Below are positions 10,097-62,478 of a stretch of 64,000 bases of DNA, piece after piece; position 1 is the stretch's first letter; the number at the start of each line of letters is the position of its first letter. The notes under the pieces are model-generated. The model ran no database searches. It worked only from the letters and a program-made list of their open reading frames with translations, and had not been told where the DNA came from. The stretch spans positions 220,389-284,388 of the forward strand of contig JAFGFJ010000006.1 of assembly GCA_016931155.1 (NCBI GenBank), in the 5' to 3' direction. The stretch comes from Candidatus Dojkabacteria bacterium. GTDB lineage: Bacteria > Patescibacteriota > Dojkabacteria > B142 > JAFGFJ01. The position numbers and the translations under genes were made by a program.

Positions 10097-11443
10097 TTAA
10101 TCTTTAAAGGGGAAGTGACGACAGAGTGATATGACCCCTCTGCAAATCTCTTTTATTCTTCCATCATTTTTTACTTTCTGCTGGAATTTCTCAAAATCGA
10201 GCTGGGTATACTTCTTTGCTATCTCTGTTACCTCAGCTATCCATCCTGCAATTATTTTCATTTCTTTTTCTTTCATTCCTCTCGTCGTGAGGGTAGGGGT
10301 GCCAAGTCTCAGCCCGGAAGGATCAGCTGGCGATCTTTGTTCACCTGGGATTGTGTTCATATTTGCAACAATTCCGGCAATGTCCAGGGCACGGGCAAGA
10401 TATTTTCCAAAAATTCCTTTACCAGTAAGATTGATTAGAATAAGGTGTTTGTCTGTTCCTCCAGACACCAGCTCAAATCCGTATTTTTTTAATTCTCCTG
10501 CCATGTACTTAGCATTTTTCACTACCTGTTTTGCGTACATTTTAAAGGAAGGTTTCAGCGCTTCCCCGATCCCAACAGTAATTCCTGCAATGTTGTTGTT
10601 GAATGGTCCTCCTTGAAGGCCTGGCAGAACCGCTCTATTTATTTTTTTAATAATGTCTTTATGTGCAAGAATTATCGCTCCTCTTCCAGACCTCAAAGTC
10701 TTATGAGTTGTCATCGTTACGATATCGGCAATTCCTACTGGAGATCTATTTACTCCTGCCGCGATTAACCCTGCCTCGTGAGCGATATCTGCCATGTAGA
10801 GTGCTCCAACTTTTTTTGCAATTGTTTTCATTCTCTTGTAATCTATCTCCCGAGGATAAGCAGTCCCCCCGGTAATTATTAGATTGGGCTTATATTTGTT
10901 TGCGATTTTTTCTATTTCTTTATAATCAAAAACTTGTGTTTCAGGATTCGTCTTGTATTGTACAGTCTTAAAAATTTTTGAGGTGATATTTACTTTTTTC
11001 TTACCTCCAAGATACACTGGATTATCCGGGTCAGGTTTTTTGTCTGTATCATAAGACCACCCGTGAGAAAGATGTCCTCCATCGGGAAGGTACATCCCCA
11101 TCATGGTATCGCCGGGACTCAAAACTGCGAGATAAACTGAAAGGTTTGCATTGCTCCCAGCAAGAGCTTGAACATTTACATCCCAGTCTCCCGGCAGTTT
11201 GAATAGTTTTTTAATTCTATTGATGGCAAGAGATTCAAGTTCGTCCACATGCTGATTTCCTTCATAATAGCGTGCATTTATATTTCCCTCGGCGTACTTG
11301 TGCATAAAAACTGAACCGACTGCTTCTCTTACAGCTATAGAGAAGAAATTTTCGGAAGGTATCATGGAAAGTTTGCTTTGCTGTCTTCTTTCCTCTTTTT
11401 TTATTATTTTAAAAACCTGCGGGTCACTTTGTTTCAGTTTCAT
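10097..11443 (-). CDS. glyA: serine hydroxymethyltransferase
   Basis: SENF motif (MIPSENFFS) and PLP-lysine block TTHKTLRSGRGAII. 448 aa. Confidence 0.95.
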   Translation of the reverse strand: MKLKQSDPQVFKIIKKEERRQQSKLSMIPSENFFSIAVREAVGSVFMHKYAEGNINARYYEGNQHVDELESLAINRIKKLFKLPGDWDVNVQALAGSNANLSVYLAVLSPGDTMMGMYLPDGGHLSHGWSYDTDKKPDPDNPVYLGGKKKVNITSKIFKTVQYKTNPETQVFDYKEIEKIANKYKPNLIITGGTAYPREIDYKRMKTIAKKVGALYMADIAHEAGLIAAGVNRSPVGIADIVTMTTHKTLRSGRGAIILAHKDIIKKINRAVLPGLQGGPFNNNIAGITVGIGEALKPSFKMYAKQVVKNAKYMAGELKKYGFELVSGGTDKHLILINLTGKGIFGKYLARALDIAGIVANMNTIPGEQRSPADPSGLRLGTPTLTTRGMKEKEMKIIAGWIAEVTEIAKKYTQLDFEKFQQKVKNDGRIKEICRGVISLCRHFPFKD

Positions 11444-11486: not shown

Positions 11487-12452
11487 TCATACTTTTGGTC
11501 TCCAGCTTTCCCTGCTTTTTTCCAATGTTAGCAAATTTTTGAAAAGCATTGCGACTGTGAGTGGTCCGATTCCGCCAGGGACTGGAGTGAGCCAACTGGC
11601 TTTTCCTATAACTGATTCCTTCTCAATATCACCAGCAACTCCTTCAGCTGTTTTGTTTATTCCTATATCGATTACAATTGCTCCCTTTTTTATCATATCT
11701 CCTTTTAGGAATTTCTGTACTCCCGTTCCGGAAATAACAATGTCTGCTCCTTCCGTAACCTTCTTAATATCTCTCGTTTTTGAGTGAGCGACAGTTATGG
11801 TTGCATCAAGATTTATCAATGCGGCAGCTAGAGGTTTCCCGACAATATCTGATCTGTTTACTATTGTAATGTTTTTACCGCAAAGGGCTTTCTTTAAATT
11901 CTTTGTTTGAAAAATCTCTTCCAAAGAAGCAAGTACGGCTTTGGGTGTTGCCGAAAGCAAGGACTTTGGAGAATCGTGAAAAACCATTCCTAGGGTAGCA
12001 GAGGAAAGACCATCAGCGTCTTTGCCTGGATCAATTTTTGAAAAAATTTCTTTTATTGTCATCCAGTAAAGATTATCTTTCTTGACTGAGCTATCTTTTT
12101 TGAAATCAACTGGTCTGACATCTTTTAGAGTATCCAACTCAAGTGATTCTTTGGGTATTGGCATTTGGATAATGTAGCCTGTTGTCTTGTTATCCTTATT
12201 AAGGTTATTGATAAGCATGAACAACTGACTTGTCTTGATCTGTGGGAATCTATGGACTTTAACAGGTACCCCGATTTCTTCACCCTTCTTCTTTTTCAAG
12301 TCAACGTAGAGATGACTGCTTTTGACATTCCCAATAATGATAATGTCAAGATGAGGTTTGTAATTGTTCTCTGAAAGTTCAACTTTTAATTCCTTAAAAA
12401 TTGCTTCAGAAAGAGCTTTCCCATCTAATATCTTTGTCTCCATTCGTTGCAA
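11487..12452 (-). CDS. folD: bifunctional 5,10-methylene-THF dehydrogenase / methenyl-THF cyclohydrolase
   Basis: N-terminal ILDGKALSEAI...IIIGNVKSSHLYVDLKKKKGEEIGV and the NAD(P)-binding region ITIVNRSDIVGKPLAAAL...ATITVAHSKT. Carries an internal insertion relative to typical FolD. Confidence 0.85.
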   Translation of the reverse strand: MQRMETKILDGKALSEAIFKELKVELSENNYKPHLDIIIIGNVKSSHLYVDLKKKKGEEIGVPVKVHRFPQIKTSQLFMLINNLNKDNKTTGYIIQMPIPKESLELDTLKDVRPVDFKKDSSVKKDNLYWMTIKEIFSKIDPGKDADGLSSATLGMVFHDSPKSLLSATPKAVLASLEEIFQTKNLKKALCGKNITIVNRSDIVGKPLAAALINLDATITVAHSKTRDIKKVTEGADIVISGTGVQKFLKGDMIKKGAIVIDIGINKTAEGVAGDIEKESVIGKASWLTPVPGGIGPLTVAMLFKNLLTLEKSRESWRPKV

Positions 12453-14709: not shown

Positions 14710-17127
14710 GTGAAAAAAGGTAGAATTATTGCAGCACAGATAGTGATATTGTTTTTGGGGGTTTCCATGGCAATAATAGGACATAGTATGAGGACGAGTC
14801 TGGCTCCTGGAGCCGGTAAAGCTCAGACATGTGGTGCTGGTTGTTGTCCGGATGGTTGGTGTTATGGGGAGGATACAAATTATCCAGATTGGAGTGATTG
14901 CAGTGCCAGGGCATGGGATGCCTGCAGGAATCATCAGGGCAGTTGTTTATGCGATGGATGGGCTGCATGTGGAAGCACACATTGCAATACGGATCAGGGA
15001 GTAAAGTATTATTGCAATAATCGTTCCTGGCAGAATACAGGTCAACCCTGTGGTAGCCCTAGTAGTAGTAGCAGCAGCAGTAGTAGTAGCAGCAGTAGTG
15101 GAGGAGAATCGTGTAGGTATTATTCGTGCAATTTTCAGATAGTAAATGGACAGATTGTACCGGGATTTTGTGGTACTGATTATCCTGCAAAAGATCCTTG
15201 TTCGTTAAATCAGACAATATATTGTAGCAACAATACGGATTGTGGCACTGGTTGCTGTAAAGACGGAGTATGTGGAGTTGGCTGTACTTCTACCTGTAGT
15301 AAAAAAAGTGACTGCTGTATTGGTTTGGATTTGTCGAGTTGTACAGTGGAATGCACAAATGGTGTATGTATCGGTTCTGGAGGTCAGGAGCCTACTCCTA
15401 GATGTGGGGATGGAGTATGTGGTAGTACAGAAAGTGCGGCAACATGTCCTTCAGATTGTCCTGGAACTCCGGGGACACCGGGGGGTGAAGATGGAGGAAC
15501 ACAAACGGGAACTGTGATAGCTTGTAGTTCAAACAGTCAGTGTCCAGCAGCTGCTCCAACATGTAAAAATGGTGTTTGTGTTCTAAATATTACTGGAGAT
15601 GCCGATGGAGTTTGTCCGGCAGGTTATACAAATCTGCCAAAATCTGCTGATGTAGTCAATGGAAACTGGGACATTATCTGTATTTTGGGAGTTCCTGGGG
15701 TTATATCAGGTTTTCAACCTGAAAATTCTGCTTGTGTGCTGGGTACTAGGACTGCCTGCGGCTCTGGGTGCAACTCGTCGAAACAGCAACAGATATGTTA
15801 TGTAACAGGTTGGAGTGAATGTGTGGGTACTGATGCTTGTGCTCCAACAATACAGCCGGGAATTCCTTGTGATAATCTTTCTCGATATAGCGAAGGGGAA
15901 CCAAGCAAAGGAGCATTTGTGGGATGTCAGGGAACAAAGAATTGTTTTTGCCAGGTAAATAGCACATTAGGTCAGGCTGGAGGACTGACAGGTAATGTTG
16001 TTTGCTATGACGATCCTGGAAATGATTCCTGTGGTATATCTGTCCCTGCTGAAGTTGTACCTTCAACCTCTCCTTCACCATCTGTAGTTCCTTCTGGTCC
16101 GGTTCCACCACCGACTATTCCTCCCTCACCTCCACCGGGTGGTGATGCATATTGTGAAAGACTTGATGATAGTCAGACAGAAGACGGGAGCAGGGTGTTT
16201 GCCGTAGTTAGAGGGGAGGACTTTAGTGTAAGACTTTATACAGATGTTGCAACGAGAAGCGGAGGATCTGTTACAAATTACAGGTACAATGCAAGTGACG
16301 GGAGTGTGGATCCAGTAGGAAATACAAGTCAGAGTTATACGGACTACACAATTTCCGGCACGATAACAGCTGCGCTTCCTCTTGGTCTGATAGATGCTGC
16401 TGATGTAATAGTAACAGATAACAATGGGAGAACATCAGGTGGGATAGGAACGCTCTGTTCAGTGAGACTTTATGTTACGGATACACCAGTGGAAGGTCCC
16501 TTCTTTATAATTGAGAAGCTTGCAGGCAGTGTCTGTATAGATGAGCCTCAGAGAGCACTTGTTGGCTATACGATTACTCTGACAAATATTGGAGATACTG
16601 CGGGAACTGTTAATGAAGTTGTTGATACACTTGATAGCAGAATTACTACAAGTATGATATCAAATATAAGTCAGGGGGGGACTTTCAATAGTTCGACGCA
16701 TCAGATCACATGGAATAATAATGGGGCAGGTTTTACGCTTGATCCGGGGGAAGAGATGACGTTTACTTATGAGGTGACCTTTGCTGCAAGTCAGTTCGGA
16801 ACTTATACTAATACTGTAGAAGCTGTTGTTCCGCCTGATATACCGCCGCCTTCTCCGGCAACTGTTACAATTACGACAATTTGTTCAGGTCTTCCGGGGA
16901 CTGCAATCTTCGGTGATTCGATGGATAGAATACTTCTGGGTCTGGTACTTGTTACATTTGGGGCACTAGTCTATAGGCTGGGTATTCACAATCTTCTTGG
17001 TGAGAAATTCAGTATGTCTGAAGTGGGTTTCTTTCTTTCAGGATTAAGCAGGAGGGATAGAGAAGACATAATGAGAAGAAGAAAAGAGAGTCTTGAAAGC
17101 AATCTTTTGAGGAGAAAAAGAAAGTAA
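14710..17127 (+). CDS. Cys-rich cell-surface protein with poly-Ser tract, DUF11 (conserved repeat) domain and a C-terminal LPxTG-like (LPGTA) / hydrophobic / basic-tail sorting-type signal
   Basis: Signal anchor. Repeated CGxGCCxDGxCG modules. S13 tract encoded by (AGY)13. DUF11-like block VGYTITLTNIGDTAGTVNEVVD...TFTYEVTF. C-terminus ...GLPGTAIFG..ILLGLVLVTFGALVY..RRRKESLESNLLRRKRK. Confidence 0.6.
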   Translation: MKKGRIIAAQIVILFLGVSMAIIGHSMRTSLAPGAGKAQTCGAGCCPDGWCYGEDTNYPDWSDCSARAWDACRNHQGSCLCDGWAACGSTHCNTDQGVKYYCNNRSWQNTGQPCGSPSSSSSSSSSSSSSGGESCRYYSCNFQIVNGQIVPGFCGTDYPAKDPCSLNQTIYCSNNTDCGTGCCKDGVCGVGCTSTCSKKSDCCIGLDLSSCTVECTNGVCIGSGGQEPTPRCGDGVCGSTESAATCPSDCPGTPGTPGGEDGGTQTGTVIACSSNSQCPAAAPTCKNGVCVLNITGDADGVCPAGYTNLPKSADVVNGNWDIICILGVPGVISGFQPENSACVLGTRTACGSGCNSSKQQQICYVTGWSECVGTDACAPTIQPGIPCDNLSRYSEGEPSKGAFVGCQGTKNCFCQVNSTLGQAGGLTGNVVCYDDPGNDSCGISVPAEVVPSTSPSPSVVPSGPVPPPTIPPSPPPGGDAYCERLDDSQTEDGSRVFAVVRGEDFSVRLYTDVATRSGGSVTNYRYNASDGSVDPVGNTSQSYTDYTISGTITAALPLGLIDAADVIVTDNNGRTSGGIGTLCSVRLYVTDTPVEGPFFIIEKLAGSVCIDEPQRALVGYTITLTNIGDTAGTVNEVVDTLDSRITTSMISNISQGGTFNSSTHQITWNNNGAGFTLDPGEEMTFTYEVTFAASQFGTYTNTVEAVVPPDIPPPSPATVTITTICSGLPGTAIFGDSMDRILLGLVLVTFGALVYRLGIHNLLGEKFSMSEVGFFLSGLSRRDREDIMRRRKESLESNLLRRKRK

Positions 17128-17164
17128 ATGAGTATGCGGATACAGGAGGTAACCTGGAAGACTA

Positions 17165-17848
17165 CTACAAAAGATAATCCTTCGCAAAATTAAGAATCTC
17201 GGCTATTATAGATACTTTAATTTTCTTATCCTCTTTTATTGGTATCTCAAAATTTAATATCCTGTCAGAAATTTTATTTTCTAATATCCAGTCCCAGAAA
17301 CATCCTCTTTCGGGGATTACCTCGTCTTTCAGTGAAGCATATCCTTCTTTGAGTTGATAACCAAGATACTTGTCCTTTGTATCATCCACTCCTGAGTATA
17401 GCCTTGTGCCTGTGGAAGATAATTTGTTTTTAAAAAACTTTAATTCTCCTTCACTCAAAGATCCGCTGTCATAAAAGTAAAAAGAATTGATGTATTTATC
17501 TTCATGAAAATCAAGGCAAAGTTTAAGATTAAAATCTTTGAGAAATTTCATAATTACGACTGCTTCATTATCGGTTGTGCCTTCAAAAAACTGTCTATTT
17601 AAATCGTTTTTATTTTTATTAATTCTTGTTTTTGCTGTCAGTGCACTTGGGCTTATTGTGGGGATAAATAAAAAAGAGGGTAGTATAGTAAAATTGTTTT
17701 TCAGATAAAATTGCAATAGTTCTATTATTTTATATTCGTCTCCGTGTATTCCTGAGATTATGAGAAGTTTAGGATTTTCCCCGCTCAGGAAATATTTTAC
17801 GGAAGTATTTTTATACTTGAATTTTTTTTGTAGTAGTCTTTTTTGCAT
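17165..17848 (-). CDS. M14-like zinc hydrolase (succinylglutamate desuccinylase / aspartoacylase / MpaA-type) family protein
   Basis: LLIISGIHGDEY (HGxE zinc motif) and a downstream DFHED block. 227 aa. Confidence 0.4.
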   Translation of the reverse strand: MQKRLLQKKFKYKNTSVKYFLSGENPKLLIISGIHGDEYKIIELLQFYLKNNFTILPSFLFIPTISPSALTAKTRINKNKNDLNRQFFEGTTDNEAVVIMKFLKDFNLKLCLDFHEDKYINSFYFYDSGSLSEGELKFFKNKLSSTGTRLYSGVDDTKDKYLGYQLKEGYASLKDEVIPERGCFWDWILENKISDRILNFEIPIKEDKKIKVSIIAEILNFAKDYLL

Positions 17849-17851
17849 AGA

Positions 17852-18036
17852 GGTTTACAATAGAATCTTTTGTGTAAAAATTACGACAGTTTTTTTGTGT
17901 ACTAATTGTCATTAGTTTTTTTGGATAAAAATTTATGATAGTCTCTTTTGTGTAAAAATTTGCAATAGTCTTTTTGCGTGAAAATTTACGTTAATTTTTT
18001 TGCATAAAAGTTTACGATTTTTTCGTTGAGTATAAC
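17852..18036. repeat. seven degenerate head-to-tail ~26-29-bp direct repeats (iteron-like), consensus roughly TTTACnATAGTnTTTTTGTGTAAAAA
   Basis: Units start at 17852, 17881, 17906, 17932, 17959, 17985 and 18011. AT-rich, no intervening spacers. Lies between the M14-like gene and the tRNA-Arg/tRNA-His pair. Confidence 0.7.
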
Positions 18037-18220
18037 ACTTCGAGTATTTTACTATAAAATATCACCAGACTTTCTGTAGTTCGTAAATAATATTTATATG
18101 ATGCACTGTTGCTGAATCTGAATATCCTACTTCGGGACTTCCTTTGAAGCTGAAACCTACAATAATTCGCTCTATTTGTGATAAAATCTCCTTGTTCTTT
18201 GAGAGTAATGGGAGTATAAA

Positions 18221-18293
18221 GCGTGAGTAGCTCAATGGATAGAGCAACTGCCTTCTAAGCAGTAGGTTGTGGGTTCGAGTCCCGCCTCGCGCA
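18221..18293 (+). tRNA. tRNA-Arg (anticodon TCT)
   Basis: Manual fold. Acceptor GCGTGAG/CTCGCGC, D-arm AGCTCAATGGATAGAGC, anticodon stem ACTGC/GCAGT with loop CTTCTAA, T-arm GTGGGTTCGAGTCCCGC. No encoded CCA. Confidence 0.85.
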
Positions 18294-18359
18294 CTTTGTT
18301 TTCTGATCTTTGGAAATAGAAAGTAAGAAAATCCATCTACTTGACGATCTCTTAGAGAT

Positions 18360-18437
18360 GGTGGCTGTAGCTCAGTTGGTTAGAGCTTCGGTTTGTGGAA
18401 CCGAGTGTCGTGGGTTCGAGTCCCACCAGCCACCCCA
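18360..18437 (+). tRNA. tRNA-His (anticodon GTG) with encoded G-1 and encoded CCA
   Basis: G-1 (18360) pairs with discriminator C. Acceptor GTGGCTG/CAGCCAC. Anticodon loop TTGTGGA. T-arm GTGGGTTCGAGTCCCAC. The 3' end is followed by CCA. Confidence 0.85.
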
Positions 18438-19919
18438 ATTTAGACTGCTACTCGTTTCAAAGATGCTATCAAAAGGCTTTTGCATTGTGTAGATTATCTT
18501 TCCAGCTTTATATGACAGGTTCTGAAGTGTAAGTTGAATAATTTCCCTTTTTTCTTCTGGTTCTGAACCTGTAAATAGCTCAAAACTCTTGGAAGCCAAT
18601 TCCAGTAAATAAGAAGCATTTATATAATATTCTTCATCTGCCTGTTCCAAGCGAGCTAATTTATCCTTAAATTCCTGCTGTTCCTGTCTAAAGCGTTTAC
18701 GCAAATTGTCATATTCTTCCTGAGTAATACTACCATCAAGCTTATCTATATAGAGCCTTTCTATTCTACCTTCGAGTTTCTTTATCTGGTTATTATATTC
18801 ATCGAACATTTCGGTATTGAAATTGATTTTACCTTCATGTGCTTCTTTGAGTGTACCAACCATATGCTGTAAATAAGTTTTGGGAATATGCATCTTCTTA
18901 TATATTTCAGAAAACTGCTTAGTAAGGCTCTTTTCTTCTATCCAGATGTCCTCGTGTTTTCCTCTCGCACCTGTGCAGTGATAGTAGATATAAGAATGGA
19001 TGTTCCCGTTTTTTTGCTTCTTGGTGTGTAATTCAGGGGTCATACTGCAACCACACTCTTTGCAGTATATTAAGCCCCTGTAGCTACCATGTTTACCTAC
19101 GAACTTACCTTTGCGATTATTTTTATATCGTCTATTTCTGACACTTTCACACATTTGCCAGACATCTTTAGTAACTAATGTCGCATACTTATGTGGACCG
19201 ATTTCACCATTTAGTTCCCGCATTCCATAATAGAAAGGGTTCTTAAGAATTTTTTCAACTTTACTTTTGTAAATATCTGCATTTATGTCTAACTTAAGTT
19301 TTTGTGATATTTGTAAATAAGAGTAAGAACCAGAGGAGTACCAATCAAATATTTTTTTAACAATCCCAGATTCAAAAGGAAGCACCATAACCCCTGCTTT
19401 TTTAGTATTTTCATCCCTGCAATTCTTATACCCATAGGGTACTCGACCATATACTTCATGAGTTCTTAATTTACTTTGTATAGTATTATGAGTATCTTCC
19501 TGACATCTATTAATATGTTGCTTTGCAAGAAACACTTTCATATCCCAGTCTACTATATCTCTTCCGAAGCTCTTTGAAGTAAGGACAAGCCTATCATCAA
19601 CAAAATGGAGTTCTTTATCAAAATCGATTCTTAGAGAGTCCATTTCAACTGCATCCCTGTAGTTTCTTGTTAATCTATCAACTCGAAAGCCTATGATGGC
19701 TTTTATTTCACTATCAGTCTTAATAAAATCAATCATTTCATCGAATTTCTTTCTCAGTTTCTGACTGGCAGTTTCCTGAAAAACAAACTCCTTTATTACT
19801 TCAAGGTTATTGTCCATGGCGTACTGTCTTAGCTTGGGCAACTGAATTTCCTCGATTGACAATCCCTGTTTTTGTTGTTCTGGGGTAGATACTCTAGCCA
19901 GAATTATTGCTTTTTTCAT
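18372..19919 (-). CDS. large serine recombinase (phage-type serine integrase); last ~22 codons of the ORF are antisense to tRNA-His
   Basis: Resolvase N-domain AIILARVSTPEQ (Ser nucleophile) ... RVDRLTRN. Recombinase domain. Zn-ribbon CKECGCSM...YYHC. Coiled-coil C-region. The ORF stop is supplied from inside the tRNA-His gene. Confidence 0.85.
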   Translation of the reverse strand: MKKAIILARVSTPEQQKQGLSIEEIQLPKLRQYAMDNNLEVIKEFVFQETASQKLRKKFDEMIDFIKTDSEIKAIIGFRVDRLTRNYRDAVEMDSLRIDFDKELHFVDDRLVLTSKSFGRDIVDWDMKVFLAKQHINRCQEDTHNTIQSKLRTHEVYGRVPYGYKNCRDENTKKAGVMVLPFESGIVKKIFDWYSSGSYSYLQISQKLKLDINADIYKSKVEKILKNPFYYGMRELNGEIGPHKYATLVTKDVWQMCESVRNRRYKNNRKGKFVGKHGSYRGLIYCKECGCSMTPELHTKKQKNGNIHSYIYYHCTGARGKHEDIWIEEKSLTKQFSEIYKKMHIPKTYLQHMVGTLKEAHEGKINFNTEMFDEYNNQIKKLEGRIERLYIDKLDGSITQEEYDNLRKRFRQEQQEFKDKLARLEQADEEYYINASYLLELASKSFELFTGSEPEEKREIIQLTLQNLSYKAGKIIYTMQKPFDSIFETSSSLNWGGWWDSNPRHSVPQTEALTN

Positions 19920-22741: not shown

Positions 22742-23887
22742 TTAATTCATATCAAGTTTATTTAACTTAACTTTTTCAAACTTACTTAATTTACTTAGTA
22801 ACGACTTGAAAGGACTCTTTGTTTTACTTACAACAAGCTGTTTCATTTCCTTATTTAGTCTATACCAGCTTGTTTTTCCAAACCTGTCTGTCACCTTCCT
22901 AAACTTTCTAACACCTATTTCCTCAAGTGCTACTTTTGCTCCAAAATAGACGAGTAACTTTCTGTAGCCAAGCTTTGGATTATTCAGTTGCAGTTCGGTT
23001 AAGATTCCTTCAAATGTCTCAGTTTCAACCATTAGTAGCTTTGGATAAGAAGATTCTATCTCTTTAATTATAGCAAGTAGTAGCTTCTTAGATAGTTTTT
23101 TGCTGTAGAGGTCTGTAAAAATGAGCTGTTTATTCTTAAAGGAGTATTTTTCAAGCAATTGCTTCATCTTTCTTCTGCTTCCTATCCTTACTTCGACTCG
23201 TAGGACTTCGAAAGGCTTCTTTGACTGTGGTTGGTCAAATAAACTCAATTGTGTGTAGTTATCCTTCTCTATAGCACGTTTTTCAGATAGTTTTGCCTGT
23301 TTTAGGTCTTTTAACTTGTCGTATAGAATAACTTCAAAATCATTACTGTGATATTTAATTGAGTGACCTTCATTTCTGAAGTCTGTACTATTCATGTCTA
23401 ATAGTCTATTTACGTTTATTTTACTTACCTCTTTCAGGATGGAGTAGGGCGTAGAATAGTCTGTAAGTACAATATTCTTTGAATAATGGACAGTAGATAC
23501 ATCTGCATTTGCTAGAATTTGTATATCCTCGATCTTTACTCCCATAATAAACAGTAAATCCTTTAGTTTCCAGCATATTTCACCGAAGTCTGATTCTTCT
23601 ACTTCATCAAAGTTGTTTCCATGAAGCAGTTTGGGGATGGAGAACTCAACCTTGAGGAATATAGTAAAACCACCTCTTCTAAGAGCTTTAAATATGGTTA
23701 GACGGGGTAAGTAGCCATGTTGCTGTTTGTCTGCCTTCGTGGGGTTATTTGTAGCCTTAAAAGGTGCTCTGGCAGTGACTTTAATGAAGGGGGGTACAAA
23801 TAGGTTTTCTGTTGAAGGTGAAAACTTATTATGGTCTAGAATCTTGAAGTCTTTTTCTTCAATTGTCAGTGAAATTGTATCTATCAT
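22742..23887 (-). CDS. hypothetical protein, possibly a Rep_trans-type (rolling-circle) replication initiation factor
   Basis: 381 aa. Blocks such as EVILYDKLKDL and VRIGSRRK resemble the conserved G-S-R...Y-D-K region of phage/plasmid Rep_trans proteins. Not verifiable without a profile search. Confidence 0.3.
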   Translation of the reverse strand: MIDTISLTIEEKDFKILDHNKFSPSTENLFVPPFIKVTARAPFKATNNPTKADKQQHGYLPRLTIFKALRRGGFTIFLKVEFSIPKLLHGNNFDEVEESDFGEICWKLKDLLFIMGVKIEDIQILANADVSTVHYSKNIVLTDYSTPYSILKEVSKINVNRLLDMNSTDFRNEGHSIKYHSNDFEVILYDKLKDLKQAKLSEKRAIEKDNYTQLSLFDQPQSKKPFEVLRVEVRIGSRRKMKQLLEKYSFKNKQLIFTDLYSKKLSKKLLLAIIKEIESSYPKLLMVETETFEGILTELQLNNPKLGYRKLLVYFGAKVALEEIGVRKFRKVTDRFGKTSWYRLNKEMKQLVVSKTKSPFKSLLSKLSKFEKVKLNKLDMN

Positions 23888-27210: not shown

Positions 27211-27239
27211 TACCAAAATTCCTTCCACCAGCCACCCCA
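27211..27239 (+). repeat. att-like direct repeat copy A (TACCAAAATTCCTTCCACCAGCCACCCCA); last 15 nt identical to the 3' end of tRNA-His including CCA
   Basis: CCACCAGCCACCCCA at 27225-27239 equals 18423-18437. Lies 4 nt after the ATPase stop. Confidence 0.8.
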
Positions 27240-27404
27240 GACGCAATAAAACATAACAAACCTTCCAGAACGCTCTCCTGTTAATAGAATTCGAGGTTCG
27301 AATTTATAAAAAATCAAATATAAAAACACTTCTGTTAGTAATATTGCATTTAAAGACTGTTTAGAATATAATACGGAAGTGTATGTTATCTTAAGTAGTC
27401 AGAA

Positions 27405-28019
27405 ATGAGAAGAAAAACACTTTTTACAAATTTTATAAACACACCCTACTTTACAAAGCAGGATCTATTGGTTTTGGCTGATAAATTCAATATCTCTGAG
27501 ACAAGTATTAACACGTTAATTCAGAGATCTATCAAAAGCAAGGAAATCATCTCATTAAAAAGAAATTGTTATGTTAATAGAGAATTTTTTCTTAAGAATA
27601 GAGATAATCTAGAGTATAAGTTCTTTGTTGCCAATATATTGATAAAATCCTCGTATATTAGCCGAGAAACCGCTCTACAGTATTACGGACTACTTTCCGA
27701 AGCATCACTGAACTATTTTACTTCTACTACTATCAAGCTACCTAGAAAATTTGAGAAATCACTCGGTATTTTTGAATACAGAAATATTAAGGATGAACTT
27801 TTTAATGGATATAAGAGTGTAAGATTTTCGATTGGTGGAAATGAATATTCGTACCTAATAGCAGAACCCTACAAAGCAATATTTGATTATATATATTATC
27901 GTACAAGTAAAAGGTCAATATCTGAAGGATTACTTATGTCAGTAATGAATGAGCTCAGAATAAATTACCATGACCTTGAAAAGGATCAGCTAGATAAATT
28001 AATTAATTCTTTTAAATAA
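27405..28019 (+). CDS. AbiEi-like antitoxin / transcriptional regulator (type IV TA system), putative
   Basis: 204-aa protein immediately upstream of, and abutting, an AbiEii-type nucleotidyltransferase gene (stop at 28017-28019, ATG at 28020). N-terminal wHTH-like region. Assignment is mainly by synteny. Confidence 0.45.
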   Translation: MRRKTLFTNFINTPYFTKQDLLVLADKFNISETSINTLIQRSIKSKEIISLKRNCYVNREFFLKNRDNLEYKFFVANILIKSSYISRETALQYYGLLSEASLNYFTSTTIKLPRKFEKSLGIFEYRNIKDELFNGYKSVRFSIGGNEYSYLIAEPYKAIFDYIYYRTSKRSISEGLLMSVMNELRINYHDLEKDQLDKLINSFK

Positions 28020-29285
28020 ATGTTAATAGATAAATTAAAACTAAAATTTAAAGAACTTAAAGAGGAAGGTAAAACGGAAGATTCAATATTAATAGCCTTA
28101 AAGGAAATTTTGCAGCACTATATATTGAACTTCATTTACACAAGCAAAAATTATTCTTATTTGACAATGTATGGTGGGACTGTTTTAAGAATAGGATATA
28201 ACCTTCCTAGAATGTCTGAAGACTTAGATTTTCAGACACATAAGAAATTAGATTTAGAGAAATTTACCGAGGAAATAAAGAGGTATTTTAAGGATAATTA
28301 CGCATTTGATATAGAAGTAAAGCACAAAAGCTCACCAGAGAATAATACAAGCACATTATTTATAAAGTTCTTCACGTTAAAAGAACTAGGTTTTAAAAAA
28401 TTAAAGCTTGAAAGACTTCATGTCAAAGTAGATGTAAACTACTTTGAAACGGCAAATAAATTTGTAAACGATACTGTACCAGGTGGTAAAGGCACGGAGT
28501 TAGCCTATACAATTAAAACTTATCCCCTTTCTACTCTAATGGCGAGTAAGGCTGTTGCATTCCTAAAGAGAGATGCCAGAGGTATAGGTGATATTTTAAC
28601 GAATGTAAAATCAAGAGATGTATACGATATGATGTGGTATATGAATCGAGGAACTATGCCTGATTTGGAATATCTTAAAGCAAAAGATATAAGCTTTGAC
28701 ACATTTTTAGATTTTAGAGATAAAGTCAAGATTAGAGCAAACAAGATTGAAGACAACGCCTTTAGAAATGATTTATCTCAGTTCTTTTATGATAGAAATG
28801 AACTTGAAAACTGGCTATCTAGCTGGAGACCAAAATTTATGCAGTTATTAGATTCATATAAAGTATATGAAGTTGGGGAATTAGAGAGGATTTATGGGCA
28901 TGTAGATTTCAGTACAGATAATAGATCTATTTCTTATACATTTAATGCTTTAGACAATCAAAATCAGAATGTGATCTTTAGTGTGACACTTACAGATTAC
29001 TGGTTCGAGTTTAGAGATATAAAAATAAATAGAGGTCACAGAGTAGCAGAGATTGAAGATAAGGCTGAGAAAGGAAGAGGTGAAATGACTGAGTTAGACT
29101 ATGAGTATATTGGACTCTTCTACACAAAGATTAAAGATTACTTAAAGCGAAATAAGAACGTGGTTTTCCAGAATGAATTTGAAACTAAAGTAATACGGGC
29201 TTCAGCAGACAATTTAGATCCAAAAAAGCAGATTTATCTTGATAAAAGGCTTTTGGAGAAGATAGATTTTGAAGAATTATTGTGA
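28020..29285 (+). CDS. AbiEii-family nucleotidyltransferase toxin (DUF1814) with a long C-terminal extension
   Basis: LTMYGGTVLRIGYNLPRMSEDLDFQ matches the (K)GGTAL...R.SEDIDF signature of AbiEii/DUF1814. 421 aa versus ~300 aa typical. Confidence 0.6.
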   Translation: MLIDKLKLKFKELKEEGKTEDSILIALKEILQHYILNFIYTSKNYSYLTMYGGTVLRIGYNLPRMSEDLDFQTHKKLDLEKFTEEIKRYFKDNYAFDIEVKHKSSPENNTSTLFIKFFTLKELGFKKLKLERLHVKVDVNYFETANKFVNDTVPGGKGTELAYTIKTYPLSTLMASKAVAFLKRDARGIGDILTNVKSRDVYDMMWYMNRGTMPDLEYLKAKDISFDTFLDFRDKVKIRANKIEDNAFRNDLSQFFYDRNELENWLSSWRPKFMQLLDSYKVYEVGELERIYGHVDFSTDNRSISYTFNALDNQNQNVIFSVTLTDYWFEFRDIKINRGHRVAEIEDKAEKGRGEMTELDYEYIGLFYTKIKDYLKRNKNVVFQNEFETKVIRASADNLDPKKQIYLDKRLLEKIDFEELL

Positions 29286-29326
29286 ATATTAATGAACAAC
29301 TCTCAAGAGAATACGGTTTAACCAAC

Positions 29327-29349
29327 GTTCCAAAATTCCTTCCACCATT
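29327..29349 (+). repeat. att-like direct repeat copy C (GTTCCAAAATTCCTTCCACCATTA), degenerate
   Basis: Shares GTTCCAAAATTCCTTCCACCA with copies A and B. Sits 42 nt after the AbiEii stop. Confidence 0.6.
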
Positions 29350-29437
29350 AAGCCTAAATTTCCCTTTAGTTGTAGCAGAAGCTTTTCAATTTTACTGAGA
29401 ATTGATAATCTACTGATGAATATGTCGATCAAACAGA

Positions 29438-30598
29438 ATGAATGAAACTGAATCAGGTATAAAAATAAGTACGGCTGATTTCAGACTACTCCAACCCTAT
29501 TCAGACTATTTAACGAAAGCTGTGAGTCCTTTGTGGGGAGAAGTTTCTTCATCTAAACCTGGAGATTCGCTTTTCGAACTTGGGCGGATCGCGTTATCCA
29601 ATAAGGCTTTAGTCGAAGATATCCATGTTTCTCACTTGAGAGATACAATTATAGAGAATGAAGTCAATCCATACCTGGTCAAGTTAGTCTCCAATTTTGA
29701 CAAGTACAGTGAATTGATAGACAAGATCCAGAGAAAAAAAACTGACTTAACTTGGGATGATGAGCGACTTCATGAGGATGGATTACCTGAGAATCTTTTT
29801 GAAGAACACAGGGCATATCAGAAGGAACTGTATCATCCAACACCAGTATGCTTACGAGATTTACATATAGAGAGTTTGGACATTCTGTGTGAATATGAGG
29901 TTAATCCCAAATTAAGAAAATTTATCAATAAAATTGGTGGGATTGCTCTGTTCGAAGAACTAATTGCTCTTGCAACTAAGCAAGACTCTGTGGACTTGGA
30001 TAGAGTAGTCCCCTTTACTGACCTCGCCTACCAAGGACTAAATAAATGGTCAGTCCTATTAGAGCCTGTTTCGCCACCTCTTTTTTGTTTGCTCAGTAAA
30101 GATAATAGATTACTTCTGAAAGAACAGAATCCCAAGTTGCTAGAAATTCTTGAAAGATTTTTTCTACTAGAATTTGGACCTCATAATTCATCAGTGTATG
30201 TTGTTCCTTCGGTCGAAAATCCAACAGGATCTTTGTCAAGGGAGTACGAATTAGATTTATTATATTTAGAGCAACATAAAATGAAAGAAGAGGAATATAT
30301 TAACCTTCTTGGTGAATTATGTATGAGTTTTCATAAAGTTAAAGAAGGGACGCGAAGTTACACCTTTAAGGGAGTAGAATTTAGAAAATTGTCTATTTCT
30401 CATTATGATGAGAGATCCCCATTCACTGGGGAAATACCAGAACAGGAAGATTTTGATTTGGTTCTATACAAGGGAGGGAAAGAGGTTGGGGTAATTCCGA
30501 GTTGCTGGAAATACTTTGCGAGTGAGGGTATTTATGAGTCACCTGGTGCAAGATTCTCTTTTAGCCCTAGAAAGATTCTCCCCTTATTTGCTAAATGA
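29438..30598 (+). CDS. hypothetical protein (386 aa), single-gene module between two att-like repeats
   Basis: Good-length ORF. No motif recognised. Flanked by repeat C upstream and repeat B downstream. Confidence 0.45.
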   Translation: MNETESGIKISTADFRLLQPYSDYLTKAVSPLWGEVSSSKPGDSLFELGRIALSNKALVEDIHVSHLRDTIIENEVNPYLVKLVSNFDKYSELIDKIQRKKTDLTWDDERLHEDGLPENLFEEHRAYQKELYHPTPVCLRDLHIESLDILCEYEVNPKLRKFINKIGGIALFEELIALATKQDSVDLDRVVPFTDLAYQGLNKWSVLLEPVSPPLFCLLSKDNRLLLKEQNPKLLEILERFFLLEFGPHNSSVYVVPSVENPTGSLSREYELDLLYLEQHKMKEEEYINLLGELCMSFHKVKEGTRSYTFKGVEFRKLSISHYDERSPFTGEIPEQEDFDLVLYKGGKEVGVIPSCWKYFASEGIYESPGARFSFSPRKILPLFAK

Positions 30599-30616
30599 GA
30601 AGTTCAAGGGAAATAG

Positions 30617-30644
30617 TTCCAAAATTTCTCCCACCAGCCACCCC
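30617..30644 (+). repeat. att-like direct repeat copy B (GTTCCAAAATTTCTCCCACCAGCCACCCC); 16 nt identical to the tRNA-His 3' end
   Basis: TCCCACCAGCCACCCC at 30629-30644 equals 18421-18436. Lies 19 nt after the 386-aa gene stop. Confidence 0.8.
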
Positions 30645-37497: not shown

Positions 37498-40212
37498 ATG
37501 AAGGATTTGTCGAAGGCGAAATTAATTATTATTGTTTTCATACTCGGTCTTTTTGGGCTTGCACTTTATTCTATTCCTGCGATAAAGGATGCAGAAAGAA
37601 ACTATGGATTTGGAATAAAACCAGTAGGAACAAAGGTACTTAGTGCATTTAGTTGGCCGACAGATATGCAGTGGTCCGTTTTGACCAGGAATGGAGCGGT
37701 TCTTGTAGATCATGAGGATAGGGCAAGCTGTGAGGATCCGACAAGAAATACCGCAATCTCAGGTAGTCTCGATATTGGTTCGCAGTCACAATGTTCTTCA
37801 GGACAGTACAATCCTGGCAATAATGGGCAGCCTGGAGCAAAAGCAAAAAATACTTATAGTGCAGGTTTTTATTACGATGACCCAAATAGAGATTCTATTG
37901 GCTACTCAAATTTGGCTGATGACTCTGCATATTTTCGGTTTAGGCTTGCTGGAAACCCGATGCAGACAAACCAAAATCTGGGGCTTCAGAATTACTACTG
38001 GTGGATCGTATTAGATGACGATGGAAATGGAACACCCGATTTTTATATAGTTTTAGATGGAAATGGTCCCAGACCTGTAGAAACTCTCACTTTGAAATAC
38101 GAAACAACTGGAGACAGTAGTCCAACTGGTGAACCTGATATTGTTTCTTACGGGAATCCGATTGGAAATGGACTTGTGAGATCTGTTCTGACACCGGACA
38201 ATGGATCCATCGGAGATACGACTGAGTACTTTCTCGATATTCAATTACCACTTGGAGATTTTGATGATATAAACGGAATTCAGCAAATCTATCAAGGAAC
38301 TAAAACATATTTGAAGTATTCTACTTCCGCCAGCGAAGATGATCCAGTTCAGGGGGATTATATATTACCAGGTAATGCTTTTGCTGATCCTGTTGTTTTT
38401 TCCTTAAGTAATTATTATGCGGTAAAGAGTGTCGATGATATAAATGGTGGGTCATTTGAACCTGGCGATATAGTTGAGTATACAGTGACAGTAAATAATT
38501 CCGGGAACAACTTAACAGATATTAATCTTTCAGATGTAATTCACGAAGAAGGGGTTTTTGAAGAAAATGCATACGGTTCTGGCTCAGGAATCCAGGCAGT
38601 AATCAATGGGAATACTTATAATTTGAGCAATATTTTTGATCAGCCTGATGCGGGAGGCTGTTATGTATACTCTAACTGTAGAGCAGATTTCTCTAATAAC
38701 ACAATCAATTTTTATAGCGAAATTATCAATATTGCTGGTTTGGGAGTACAGTCTTTTGATTCCTTCTCGATAAAGTATCGGGTTACATATTTATCTGAAG
38801 GAAACTATTCAAATCAGGCTATACTGAAAAGTAATGAAATAAATGGACAGAGGTATAGTGATGATCCTTCAGTTGATGATTCTGTAGATTGTATTGTTGC
38901 AGGTGTGATAAATTGCAATGATGGAATAACGGGAAATGATGATCCAGTGGTCATTAATAATGTACCAACGCCAACGCCAACGCCAACGCCAACGCCAACG
39001 CCAACGCCAACGCCAACGCCAACACCAACGCCAACACCAACACCAACACCAACGCCAACACCTAAAGCTGACTCTGGATCAACTTCCAAATCTACCACCA
39101 CCCTCGTAATTAGTGAAATGCCAGAGACACATAAAGGCTATTATGATGGAGAGCTTATAGTTAGTTTGAAAGCCGATCCACCTCCTGATTTGACACTTTC
39201 GTTTGGGGATGTTGTGACCTATACCTTGATAATAAAGAATACTTCAAGTTCAGCAATTACAGGTGTTACTGCAATAAACCAGATCCAACAGGGTCTTTTA
39301 TACGTTCCCGGGAGTTCGATTTTAAATGGAGTACTACTAACAGATAAGGAAGACAAGGATTCAGGTTATTACGATAAGGAGAATAGTATCTTCCAGGTTA
39401 TGGTTGGAGACATAGCTGGGGAATCTGAAATTAGTCTGGTGTTTAAGTTGGAGCTTGATGATCTGGAACTTACAGGTAAAGAAGTATTAAAAAAGGTAAT
39501 GATAAAGACAGAAAAACTCGGTTTTATCTACTCAAATGAAATCAAACACTTAGTTGATCTATCAACTATTTCTAAAGGAATTGATGAAACATCAATAAGC
39601 ACAAAAGATATTATAAAGTGGATGGCAGATATTAAGAACATGGGGTTACTATTAATCATTCTTTTTTCCCCGGTTCTAATTGTATTGCTCCTGTACAATC
39701 GCAAACGTGGTTTTCTTTACTTGACAGCTCCAAACCCAAAGGGAATTAACACGCCGATTGAGTCTTTCAACTTCATGGGGGTGAATTCTGAATCTGACAT
39801 TCAAATAACTGAGTGTCTTGAGTATTCTTTGTGTTCTCTTGTTGAGATGGATTCATCCTGGGGTCGAATCATAAAGTATGACAATAGCCCATGGATAGTT
39901 GTTATTAGCAATAAAACGCAATATAAGAAAAATGATAATGGAGGAACTCTCTTTATCTTATCCAAGAAAGATTTTAATTATAAGAGTGGTATATGGACAA
40001 CTAACAAGGAGGTGAAGCCAATTGAAAAATTATTTTTTCATACTGGTCTTGAAGCTTTGATGAGTAATAAAATCCAGGTATTTTTTGTGAATAAAGCAGA
40101 CTTTGATGTTGTGATCAAGGATGACGAAAAAGCTATTTGCAAGCTAAAGGAGCTTAAATCAGAAAATGAAAAAGAGGGGATCAATTCAATAAACCTGAAA
40201 TCACTTTTTTAG
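37498..40212 (+). CDS. large cell-surface protein with two DUF11 (conserved repeat) domains, a (PT)16 linker, a TM segment and a C-terminal cytoplasmic domain
   Basis: Signal anchor. DUF11-like GDIVEYTVTVNNSGNNLTDINLSD and GDVVTYTLIIKNTSSSAITGV. The (PT)n linker is encoded by a CCAACG microsatellite. Hydrophobic MGLLLIILFSPVLIVLLLY followed by NRKRG. Confidence 0.65.
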   Translation: MKDLSKAKLIIIVFILGLFGLALYSIPAIKDAERNYGFGIKPVGTKVLSAFSWPTDMQWSVLTRNGAVLVDHEDRASCEDPTRNTAISGSLDIGSQSQCSSGQYNPGNNGQPGAKAKNTYSAGFYYDDPNRDSIGYSNLADDSAYFRFRLAGNPMQTNQNLGLQNYYWWIVLDDDGNGTPDFYIVLDGNGPRPVETLTLKYETTGDSSPTGEPDIVSYGNPIGNGLVRSVLTPDNGSIGDTTEYFLDIQLPLGDFDDINGIQQIYQGTKTYLKYSTSASEDDPVQGDYILPGNAFADPVVFSLSNYYAVKSVDDINGGSFEPGDIVEYTVTVNNSGNNLTDINLSDVIHEEGVFEENAYGSGSGIQAVINGNTYNLSNIFDQPDAGGCYVYSNCRADFSNNTINFYSEIINIAGLGVQSFDSFSIKYRVTYLSEGNYSNQAILKSNEINGQRYSDDPSVDDSVDCIVAGVINCNDGITGNDDPVVINNVPTPTPTPTPTPTPTPTPTPTPTPTPTPTPTPTPKADSGSTSKSTTTLVISEMPETHKGYYDGELIVSLKADPPPDLTLSFGDVVTYTLIIKNTSSSAITGVTAINQIQQGLLYVPGSSILNGVLLTDKEDKDSGYYDKENSIFQVMVGDIAGESEISLVFKLELDDLELTGKEVLKKVMIKTEKLGFIYSNEIKHLVDLSTISKGIDETSISTKDIIKWMADIKNMGLLLIILFSPVLIVLLLYNRKRGFLYLTAPNPKGINTPIESFNFMGVNSESDIQITECLEYSLCSLVEMDSSWGRIIKYDNSPWIVVISNKTQYKKNDNGGTLFILSKKDFNYKSGIWTTNKEVKPIEKLFFHTGLEALMSNKIQVFFVNKADFDVVIKDDEKAICKLKELKSENEKEGINSINLKSLF

Positions 40213-45758: not shown

Positions 45759-45892
45759 GTACAAGTCACTTTAAATTAGATGAGTATGGATTTGAATCAG
45801 GAATAAGGTCGTAGACAAGAGTGAAGAGTGAAGAGTGAAGAGTGAAGAGTGAGAGTCAAGAATAGGGATGAAAGTAAGAATAAGGATGAGAA

Positions 45893-46249: not shown

Positions 46250-46317
46250 TCCTTTGAATTATACATTATTGTTCCATTTTTATTGACAATTTTGCTATTA
46301 TTAATTTAATTATTATC

Positions 46318-53744: not shown

Positions 53745-53824
53745 ATGGATAATTATATCAAATCAATAAACATTCTTTCATTTCTAAATTCTCCTGTCTA
53801 TAATCTAATATTGAAAATAATAAT

Positions 53825-61878: not shown

Positions 61879-62478
61879 ATGAATACAAATGTGCTGGAAA
61901 AAATAGAAAAGGGTCAGAGAAAAGGTAAAATGGTCAGCTTCAATGTGGGTGACAGTATTGCTGTTCATAGTGTTATTGATAAAGATAAAGAAGGGAAAGA
62001 GCGTGTTCAGATCTTTAAAGGTATTGTTCTGAAGGTTAAAGGATCCGGGATTGGAAAGACCTTTGTAGTAAGAAAAATCGCTCATGGGGGGATTGGTGTG
62101 GAAAAGACGATTCTTATGAATTCTCCTCTTATCAAAAAAATAGAATTTATAAAAAAGGGTAAGGTCAGGAAGGCAAAGCTTTATTACATGAGAAAAAGAA
62201 TAGGAAAAGCTGCCTTGAAAATAATGGAGGGGACAATGAGTGAAAAGGAGATGAAAGAGTTGGAGGAGGCTATGGAGGAACAGAAAAAGGAGAGGAAAGA
62301 GGGAACTGAAGAAGAAAATAATTCAGAAATTTCTGAAGGACAAACGAAAAAAGAGGAACAGAATTCTGCTGTAGAGAATATGGAGAAAACAAAGGACAAA
62401 AAGGAAAATCAAATGACTAATGAAAAGGACGGGGAGAAGAAAGATAATAAGAATGTCGAAGAAGAAAATAAAGGATAA
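61879..62478 (+). CDS. rplS: 50S ribosomal protein L19 with a long Lys/Glu-rich C-terminal extension
   Basis: FNVGDSIAVHSVIDKDKEGKERVQIFKGIVLKVKGSGIGKTFVVRKIAHGGIGVEKT...KVRKAKLYYMRKRIGKAA L19 core. About 80 extra KE-rich residues. Confidence 0.9.
   Translation: MNTNVLEKIEKGQRKGKMVSFNVGDSIAVHSVIDKDKEGKERVQIFKGIVLKVKGSGIGKTFVVRKIAHGGIGVEKTILMNSPLIKKIEFIKKGKVRKAKLYYMRKRIGKAALKIMEGTMSEKEMKELEEAMEEQKKERKEGTEEENNSEISEGQTKKEEQNSAVENMEKTKDKKENQMTNEKDGEKKDNKNVEEENKG

What the first reader, a model, noticed from the sequence alone, without database searches (positions are those of the whole stretch)
17852..18036. Seven-unit iteron-like tandem repeat immediately upstream of the tRNA-Arg / tRNA-His / integrase junction
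There are seven contiguous, degenerate 26 to 29-bp AT-rich units (TTTACnATAGTnTTTTTGTGTAAAAA-like) with no spacers. The arrangement resembles plasmid/phage origin iterons or a multi-site protein-binding array. Its position on the chromosomal side of the tRNA integration target and next to a possible Rep-encoding element makes an origin, partition or integration-host-factor-like platform plausible. It could also be a UP-element/promoter array for the tRNA operon.
Basis: seen in the sequence. Interest (0 to 1): 0.6.

Follow-up and report, generated by a model that had tools for sequence, protein, structure and literature searches.

The report
Degenerate 26-bp minisatellite beside tRNA genes
A real but decaying run of seven 26-27-bp AT-rich repeats fills the space between a small enzyme gene and two tRNA genes in an uncultured Dojkabacteria genome; it looks like an ordinary slippage-born minisatellite in a promoter or leader region, not a replication origin.

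Summary
TRF finds 7.0 head-to-tail copies of a 26-bp unit at 17834-18018 (67% match), far above chance, and the motif occurs nowhere else in the window.

The origin or iteron reading does not hold:
- The array is chromosomal, about 400 bp outside the attL of an island integrated at the tRNA-His 3' end.
- Twelve loci from seven related islands, three of them also at tRNA-His, contain no such array.
- There is no GC-skew switch, no DnaA-box enrichment and no Par genes.

What the array is: the whole stretch between the ATG of a divergent AstE/AspA-family gene (the ATG lies inside unit 1, with no Shine-Dalgarno sequence) and a predicted back-to-back promoter pair at 18026-18060. Differences between units are 71% transitions and are not clustered by column, which looks neutral.

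Best reading: a slippage-generated minisatellite that now serves as the 5' leader or upstream AT-rich DNA. A multi-operator array cannot be excluded. No close relative exists in any database searched, so conservation is untestable.

Interest is low. The island family is the more interesting by-product.

The parts
17831..18017 (.). Seven head-to-tail units of 24-30 bp: u1 17831-60, u2 17861-88, u3 17889-912, u4 17913-38, u5 17939-65, u6 17966-91, u7 17992-18017. Consensus TAGTyTTTTTTGyrTAAAAATTTAyrA; 76% A+T, T-rich on the + strand.
   Evidence: TRF; shuffle control and autocorrelation; alignment A1; pairwise unit identity 56-85%; base counts.
18018..18043 (.). Decayed eighth unit (TTTTTTCGTTGAGTATAACACTTCGA). 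On the minus strand it supplies the -10 (TATACT, extended TGt) of the best predicted promoter.
   Evidence: Alignment A1; PWM scan; consensus scan.
17803..17830 (.). Possible further decayed copy inside the first codons of the AstE-like gene. Weak evidence.
   Evidence: 61% identity to the reference copy in the repeat finder family D1; row u0 of A1.
17165..17848 (-). AstE/AspA-family (M14-like deacylase) gene, 227 aa. Its ATG (17846-17848) is the GCAT of unit u1. No Shine-Dalgarno sequence precedes it. The first 4 codons lie upstream of the Met of the two homologues with short N-termini.
   Evidence: Pfam PF24827, E=4.4e-08; NCBIfam weak hits to MpaA, aspartoacylase and AstE; homologue alignment A3; sequence read directly.
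18029..18058 (-). Predicted sigma-70 promoter TTTATA-18-TGtTATACT. The inferred start near 18022 would transcribe the whole array as a roughly 173-nt leader of the AstE-like mRNA. Inference only.
   Evidence: Best-scoring candidate in the region, 99.98th percentile of the window; also found by the consensus scan.
18026..18055 (+). Predicted promoter TTGAGT-18-TACTAT facing the tRNA genes, with an inferred start near 18062. The array would then lie directly upstream of its -35.
   Evidence: PWM scan, 99.97th percentile.
18177..18187 (+). Alternative tRNA promoter: extended -10 TGTGATAAAAT, of the same TGnTAnnnT type as the other tRNA promoters in the window. If this one is used, the array sits about -176 to -360 from the start.
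   Evidence: Read directly; compared with the tRNA upstream regions.
18221..18294 (+). tRNA-Arg (TCT).
   Evidence: ARAGORN; Rfam, 73.5 bits.
18361..18437 (+). tRNA-His (GTG). Its 3' end is the island attachment site (attL).
   Evidence: ARAGORN and Rfam; direct repeats of its 3' end at 27225-27239 and 30629-30644.

Best explanation
The array is a chromosomal, AT-rich minisatellite. It most likely arose by replication slippage or unequal exchange of a roughly 26-bp segment at the 5' end of the AstE/AspA-family gene, and it has since decayed to 56-85% identity between units. It has no dedicated replication, partition or integration function.

Today it forms the roughly 170-bp stretch between that gene's start codon and a back-to-back pair of predicted promoters at the array's right edge. 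The start codon is itself supplied by unit 1 and has no Shine-Dalgarno sequence.

The most likely consequence is passive and cis-acting:
- The array is transcribed as a long A/U-rich leader of the AstE-like mRNA. That leader carries decoy AUGs, including a 4-codon uORF in u7 that repeats the gene's first three codons.
- It also provides AT-rich, locally bent DNA upstream of the tRNA-Arg/tRNA-His promoter.

Shown: the repeat, its position, its uniqueness, its exclusion from the island, and the neutral-looking substitution pattern. Inferred: the promoters, transcription of the array, and any effect on expression.
For: - The repeat is real and confined to this locus.
- The ATG of the 227-aa gene lies inside u1. 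The gene's first codons read as repeat sequence, and the homologues with short N-termini begin 4 codons later.
- The 31 mismatches to the unit consensus are 71% transitions. Their spread over columns does not differ from random placement (variance p=0.09; invariant columns p=0.26).
- The two most variable dinucleotides are CG/TG/CA, as expected from mutational decay.
- The best promoter candidates lie at 18026-18060, at the array's edge. The consensus scan finds no excess of promoter-like sites in 17000-19000 (7 against 6.3 expected).
- The AstE homologues at 43% identity or less have no array upstream.
- Three other genomes carrying the same island type at tRNA-His have none upstream of tRNA-His.
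- A wedge model shows no net curvature over the array (37th percentile), only local bends that cancel at the 2.5-turn period.
- There is no match in Rfam, plasmids, phages or viral contigs.
Against: - A 185-bp non-functional array is unexpected in a streamlined CPR genome.
- TTTTG and the T three bases later are invariant in all 7 units, and the A5T3 core is largely kept. With only 7 units, the column test has little power to detect constraint.
- The + strand RNA folds better than shuffles (z=-3.6).
- No transcription data and no close relative exist, so neither the promoters nor neutrality is demonstrated.
Confidence: 0.45

Rival explanations
1. The array is a multi-site operator or nucleoid-protein platform. 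Each unit would carry an imperfect dyad (yrTAAA-AA-TTTAyr) bound by a dimeric regulator. Cooperative binding along 7 sites would control the divergent AstE-like and tRNA promoters.
For: TTTTG-NN-T is invariant and the A5T3 core conserved in the units. Four units match YRTAAAWWTTTAYR with 1 mismatch. The array sits in a divergent promoter region. The 53-bp higher-order period equals 5 helical turns, so alternate units share a helix face.
Against: The dyad is mostly the trivial self-complementarity of an A-run followed by a T-run. The pattern is not significantly enriched window-wide (6 hits against 2.9 expected; 8 of 100 shuffles reach 6). No other site lies in a promoter, so there is no sign of a regulon. 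No column-specific constraint was detectable. No regulator gene is adjacent. The 26.4-bp spacing puts neighbouring sites on opposite faces.
Confidence: 0.25
2. The array is a UP-element or tandem-promoter array that boosts transcription of the tRNA-Arg/tRNA-His operon.
For: The array is AT-rich and directly upstream of the -35 of the + strand candidate at 18026-18055. One unit pair scores as TTTACA-16-TGtAAAAAT. The unit core TTTTGTGTAAAAAT resembles the proximal extended -10 TGTGATAAAAT at 18177-18187.
Against: In the units TG is followed by two bases, not one, before TAAAA. None therefore matches the TGnTAnnnT form used by the other tRNA promoters here. Promoter-like sites are not enriched. 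If the 18177-18187 promoter is the real one, the array lies at -176 to -360, too far for a UP element. Other tRNA genes in the window manage with a single promoter abutting the tRNA.
Confidence: 0.1
3. The array is an iteron-type origin or a partition centromere serving the adjacent Rep-encoding island.
For: Seven direct repeats in AT-rich DNA. The neighbouring island encodes a protein with a replication-initiator fold.
Against: The array is about 400 bp outside attL, separated from the island by two tRNA genes. The Rep-like protein has the Rep_trans rolling-circle fold. By established knowledge of the pT181 family, that class acts on a nick-site inverted repeat, not on iterons. Twelve loci from seven related islands have no such array. 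No unit copy lies inside the island. No ParA, ParB or ParR was found among the window ORFs scanned. The period of 26.4 bp is not a whole number of helical turns. There is no match to plasmids or phages.
Confidence: 0.04
4. The array is a chromosomal DnaA-box cluster, either oriC or a datA-like titration site next to a tRNA operon.
For: Unit u4 contains TTATCCAAA, an 8/9 match to a DnaA box. As I recall, the E. coli datA locus lies next to the glyVXY tRNA operon.
Against: There is only one box with 1 mismatch or fewer in the array. The window-wide count is at chance level (28 against 20.1 expected; 7 of 100 shuffles reach 28). Cumulative GC skew rises on both sides, with no switch. No dnaA or dnaN was found among the window ORFs scanned.
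Confidence: 0.02
5. The + strand of the array is transcribed into a structured non-coding RNA or a structured tRNA-precursor leader.
For: The + strand folds at -40.4 kcal/mol against -28.5 for shuffles (z=-3.6), while the minus strand gives z=-1.0.
Against: The strand asymmetry is what G-U pairing gives any G/T-rich repeat with A-runs and T-runs. The predicted helices pair neighbouring units rather than forming one module per unit. There is no Rfam match. No good + strand promoter lies upstream of the array. There are no homologues with which to test covariation.
Confidence: 0.05

Closest known systems
Bacterial intergenic minisatellites / VNTRs (for example MIRU-type repeats of mycobacteria)
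   Same: Head-to-tail units of tens of bp in non-coding DNA next to a gene start. They are degenerate, lineage-specific and generated by slippage, with at most a passive effect on expression.
   Different: Copy-number polymorphism, the defining practical property of VNTRs, could not be tested because only one genome exists. The units here are more diverged (56-85% identity) than in most typed VNTRs.
Iterons of theta-replicating plasmids (pSC101, F, P1, R6K, RK2 type)
   Same: Several direct repeats in one orientation within AT-rich DNA.
   Different: The units are 26-27 bp at 2.5 helical turns, not 17-22 bp at about 2 turns. No adjacent cognate initiator exists. The array is not inside a replicon. 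It is absent from related islands. The only Rep-like protein nearby is of the rolling-circle type.
Upstream activating regions of stable-RNA promoters (UP element plus FIS sites of E. coli rrnB P1 and tyrT)
   Same: AT-rich, locally bent DNA upstream of a tRNA operon.
   Different: Those regions have 1 UP element and about 3 helically phased FIS sites, not 7 tandem duplicates. FIS is not expected in CPR bacteria. The distance to the likeliest tRNA promoter here may be more than 170 bp.
Rep_trans (pT181/RepD family) double-strand origins and MOB_T oriT sites
   Different: Those origins are inverted repeats carrying a nick site, located in or beside the rep gene. The array is a direct repeat outside the element.

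Membership tests
Iteron-type replication origin | Three or more direct repeats of one binding motif in one orientation | tested here: met
   Seven units plus a decayed eighth, all direct.
Iteron-type replication origin | Unit and spacing of about 17-23 bp, so that sites share one helix face | tested here: not met
   The mean period is 26.4 bp, or 2.5 turns. Neighbouring units face opposite sides.
Iteron-type replication origin | Cognate iteron-binding initiator gene next to the repeats | tested here: not met
   The neighbours are an AstE-like gene and tRNAs. The only Rep-like protein is 4.7 kb away and has the rolling-circle Rep_trans fold.
Iteron-type replication origin | Located inside the replicon or mobile element it serves | tested here: not met
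   attL is at 18421-18437 and attR at 27225-27239. The array ends at 18018-18043, outside the element.
Iteron-type replication origin | Conserved in related elements | tested here: not met
   No tandem array in L104-L115. The upstream regions of tRNA-His in L111 and L115 were read directly.
Partition centromere (parS/parC) | Adjacent ParA/ParB or ParM/ParR genes | tested here: not met
   No Par family was found among the window ORFs scanned against Pfam.
oriC / DnaA-box cluster | Cluster of DnaA boxes and a GC-skew switch | tested here: not met
   One 8/9 box lies in the array and the window-wide count is at chance. Cumulative skew rises on both sides.
UP element of a sigma-70 promoter | AT-rich block at -40 to -60 of a functional promoter | tested here: inconclusive
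   This is true only if the predicted promoter at 18026-18055 is the real one. With the 18177-18187 promoter the array is too far away. No transcription-start data exist.
Tandem promoter array | Each unit carries a competent -35/-10 pair | tested here: not met
   One unit pair reaches the 99.9th percentile and the rest score lower. There is no excess over shuffles. The TG-NN-TAAAA spacing differs from this genome's TGnTAnnnT form.
Bacterial minisatellite / VNTR | Head-to-tail non-coding units of 10 bp or more, above chance | tested here: met
Bacterial minisatellite / VNTR | Substitutions between units without position-specific constraint | tested here: inconclusive
   71% transitions, with the column spread not different from random (p=0.09 and p=0.26). 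Seven units give little power.
Bacterial minisatellite / VNTR | Copy-number variation between strains | not testable with these tools
   Only one genome is known. A Logan assembly of run SRR13394437, probably the same population, is identical. There is no protein relative above 43% identity.

The most novel reading that the evidence does not exclude
The array is a phased multi-operator. A 14-bp dyad (yrTAAA-N2-TTTAyr) would recur every 26-27 bp, with alternate sites on one helix face. A so-far unknown CPR DNA-binding or nucleoid protein would use it to co-regulate a tRNA operon and a divergent deacylase gene. This would be a Dojkabacteria-specific analogue of FIS-type upstream activation.
Probability: 0.2. 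Interest if true: 0.45.

Novelty: new member of a known kind. Interest (0 to 1): 0.2.

Why it matters
Taken alone it matters little. It is one more lineage-specific minisatellite, interesting mainly because such "spare" DNA is rare in streamlined CPR genomes and because it has overwritten a gene's translation start. If it proved to be a protein-binding array, it would give a first handle on transcription control of stable-RNA genes in Dojkabacteria.

The practical value of this check is negative. The array should not be annotated as an origin, and it is not part of the neighbouring mobile element.

Tried and rejected
- **Orthologous loci in GTDB genomes.** The AstE-like protein found nothing. 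GlyA with 10-kb flanks gave 80 loci, none syntenic; AstE, p805, p482 and p206 were all absent.
- **Protein homologues.** The AstE-like protein has 3 relatives at 43% identity or less, with no array upstream. The adjacent 805-aa protein has none useful. No close relative exists, so a conservation test is impossible.
- **Two-unit DNA pattern scan.** Metagenomes gave 18 hits. All were AT-rich coincidences or satellites, for example L089, a gene-free 24% GC contig. Viral contigs gave 0 hits.
- **BLAST** against plasmids and phages: no match.
- **Rfam:** tRNAs only.
- **Transposon-end idea.** No inverted copy of the unit exists anywhere in the window.
- **The 15-nt perfect inverted repeat bracketing the AstE gene.** Perfect inverted repeats of 14 nt or more turn up in 59% of Markov-shuffled windows, so it is not significant.
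- **Global DNA curvature.** The array is unremarkable at the 37th percentile.
- **DnaA boxes:** at chance level.
- **Dyad motif regulon:** not enriched.
- **Literature searches** found nothing on such repeats in Dojkabacteria or upstream of CPR tRNA genes.
- **Sequence-level link of the 381-aa family to Rep_trans.** None was found in Pfam, PDB sequences, NCBIfam or PHROGs. Only the fold match supports it.

Full report
**1. Observation**

The repeat is real. TRF reports 17834-18018, period 26, 7.0 copies, 67% matches. It also reports a 53-bp higher-order period at 17868-17990 with 76% matches.
- Dinucleotide-preserving shuffles of 17800-18220 never exceeded a TRF score of 66, against 139 for the real sequence (500 shuffles).
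- Self-match peaks at lags 26-27 and 52-53.
- Aligning the units gives the consensus TAGTyTTTTTTGyrTAAAAATTTAyrA. There are seven clear units (17831-18017), a decayed eighth (18018-43) and perhaps another decayed copy on the left.
- The motif occurs nowhere else in the 64-kb window.

**2. Organism and context**

NCBI names the adjacent protein as from a Candidatus Dojkabacteria bacterium, on a 559,650-bp contig. TsaE, a TsaB-like protein, RecJ and GatB in the window confirm a bacterium.

To the left of the array, on the minus strand, is a 227-aa AstE/AspA-family gene at 17165-17848.
- Its ATG is the GCAT of unit 1.
- No Shine-Dalgarno sequence precedes it, although other genes here have GGAGG.
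- Its first four codons lie upstream of the Met of the two homologues with short N-termini.

To the right are tRNA-Arg(TCT) at 18221-18294 and tRNA-His(GTG) at 18361-18437. Beyond them on the minus strand come a large serine recombinase, Vsr, EcoRII and an HTH-Dcm methylase.

**3. The island and the "Rep" question**

The last 15-16 nt of tRNA-His recur as direct repeats at 27225-27239 and 30629-30644. This delimits two tandem islands. The array is therefore chromosomal, about 400 bp outside attL.

The 381-aa island protein (22742-23887) belongs to a very large CPR family: 1414 hits, with no Pfam domain.
- Foldseek found nothing significant, and sequence profiles found nothing.
- An invariant LYDK (Y189) resembles, as I recall it, the catalytic-tyrosine motif of that family.

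Homologous islands share one module. In order it is a 54-aa ORF, a SpoVG-like protein, this protein, usually an HTH_17, restriction-modification cargo and a large serine recombinase.
- Three of them are also inserted at tRNA-His, with the recombinase 3' end overlapping the tRNA in antisense.
- None of the 12 loci from seven elements contains a comparable tandem array.
- The regions upstream of tRNA-His in L111 and L115 show none.

By established knowledge of pT181-type plasmids, rolling-circle initiators act on a nick-site inverted repeat, not on iterons. The origin reading therefore fails on location, on initiator class and on conservation.

**4. Other origin-type readings**

- Cumulative GC skew rises on both sides of the array.
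- DnaA-box-like 9-mers are at chance, with only one in the array.
- No Par, DnaA or DnaN family appears among the window ORFs scanned.
- There is no similarity to plasmids, phages or viral contigs.

**5. Promoter analysis**

Other tRNA genes in the window have classic promoters of the TTGnnn-17/18-TGnTATAAT type, abutting the tRNA.

A PWM scan places the best candidates of the region back-to-back at the array's right edge:
- Minus strand: TTTATA-18-TGtTATACT at 18058-18029, at the 99.98th percentile. It would transcribe the array as a roughly 173-nt leader.
- Plus strand: TTGAGT-18-TACTAT at 18026-18055.

A further extended -10, TGTGATAAAAT, lies at 18177-18187.

The units themselves carry TG-NN-TAAAA, one base off the extended -10 form. 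Promoter-like sites are not enriched. The array is therefore in a promoter or leader region but is not convincingly a promoter array.

**6. Constraint or decay?**

- The 31 departures from the unit consensus are 71% transitions.
- Their distribution over columns is compatible with random placement (p=0.09 and p=0.26).
- The two most variable dinucleotides alternate between CG, TG and CA.
- TTTTG and the following T are invariant, but seven units give little power.
- The apparent dyad yrTAAA-AA-TTTAyr is largely the self-complementarity of A5T3. It is not enriched elsewhere in the window.
- A wedge model (parameters from memory) gives local bends that cancel over the array, placing it at the 37th percentile.
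- The + strand RNA folds better than shuffles (z=-3.6) and the minus strand does not (z=-1.0). This fits G-U pairing in a G/T-rich repeat rather than a modular structure.

**7. Comparative dead end**

- No GTDB representative genome carries the AstE-like gene or its neighbours.
- Among 5.8 billion proteins, the AstE-like protein has three relatives at 43% identity or less.
- The adjacent 805-aa protein has none useful.
- A two-unit pattern scan of metagenomes returned only AT-rich coincidences and satellites.

Conservation and copy-number variation therefore cannot be tested.

**8. Verdict**

The finding is a genuine but ordinary feature: a degenerate minisatellite that has colonised the 5' end of one gene. 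It sits between that gene and a tRNA operon.
- The most likely effect is passive, as a leader or upstream AT-rich DNA (confidence 0.45).
- An operator array remains possible (0.25).
- Origin, partition and integration-platform readings are disfavoured.

Interest is 0.2. Novelty: a new member of a known kind.

Noticed in passing
[not shown]
   Followed up: partly
window 18361-18437; L111 11484-11560; L113 13813-13889; L115 14652-14728: In four different genomes this island type sits at tRNA-His(GTG). In each, the 3' end of the serine recombinase gene overlaps the tRNA in antisense (by about 66 nt in the window).
   Followed up: partly
window 27225-27239 and 30629-30644: There are two direct repeats of the tRNA-His 3' end, each preceded by CCAAAATTyCyT. 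This implies two tandem islands. The second (27240-30644) carries an AbiEi/AbiEii toxin-antitoxin pair and a 386-aa unknown protein.
   Followed up: partly
window 17158-17172 and 17826-17840: A perfect 15-nt inverted repeat (AAGACTACTACAAAA / TTTTGTAGTAGTCTT) brackets the AstE-like gene exactly, from the stop codon to codons 3-8. Perfect inverted repeats of 14 nt or more occur in 59% of shuffled windows, so this may be chance. Its position next to the array remains unexplained.
   Followed up: partly
window 18256 and 18357: Two Logan contigs of run SRR13394437 end at these positions, leaving a 100-bp gap across the 3' half of tRNA-Arg and the spacer. No duplicate of that segment exists in the window. 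Population heterogeneity or low coverage are both possible.
   Followed up: no
window 46250-46290 and 53745-53765 (minus strand): The promoters of tRNA-Arg(TCG) and tRNA-Leu(GAG) end their -10 hexamers only 7-8 nt before the mature tRNA 5' end. The transcripts would start at or within 2 nt of the mature end, making these nearly leaderless tRNAs.
   Followed up: no
window 10097-11443 versus 11487-12452: GlyA is 70% identical to GlyA of MAGs labelled Woesearchaeota, and 77% identical to a Dojkabacteria MAG. The adjacent FolD is at most 37% identical to anything in the same loci. This points to gene transfer, mislabelled bins or very uneven evolutionary rates.
   Followed up: no
window 38965-39059, 45817-45861, 62468-62535: Other short tandem repeats: CCAACG x15.8 inside the 904-aa DUF11 protein gene; AAGAGTG x6.6 downstream of a Glucodextran_B-domain gene; and ATAAAGACAAAG x5.7 at the end of an unusually long (199-aa) ribosomal protein L19 ORF.
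   Followed up: no
L089 1456-1798 and 2003-2825: A gene-free metagenome contig at 24% GC carries 27-bp x13 and 26-bp x32 satellites whose unit (TTTTTGTCTAAAAATTTTGATTATTAA) superficially resembles the array's unit. It is probably a eukaryotic satellite and a coincidence of AT-rich sequence.
   Followed up: partly
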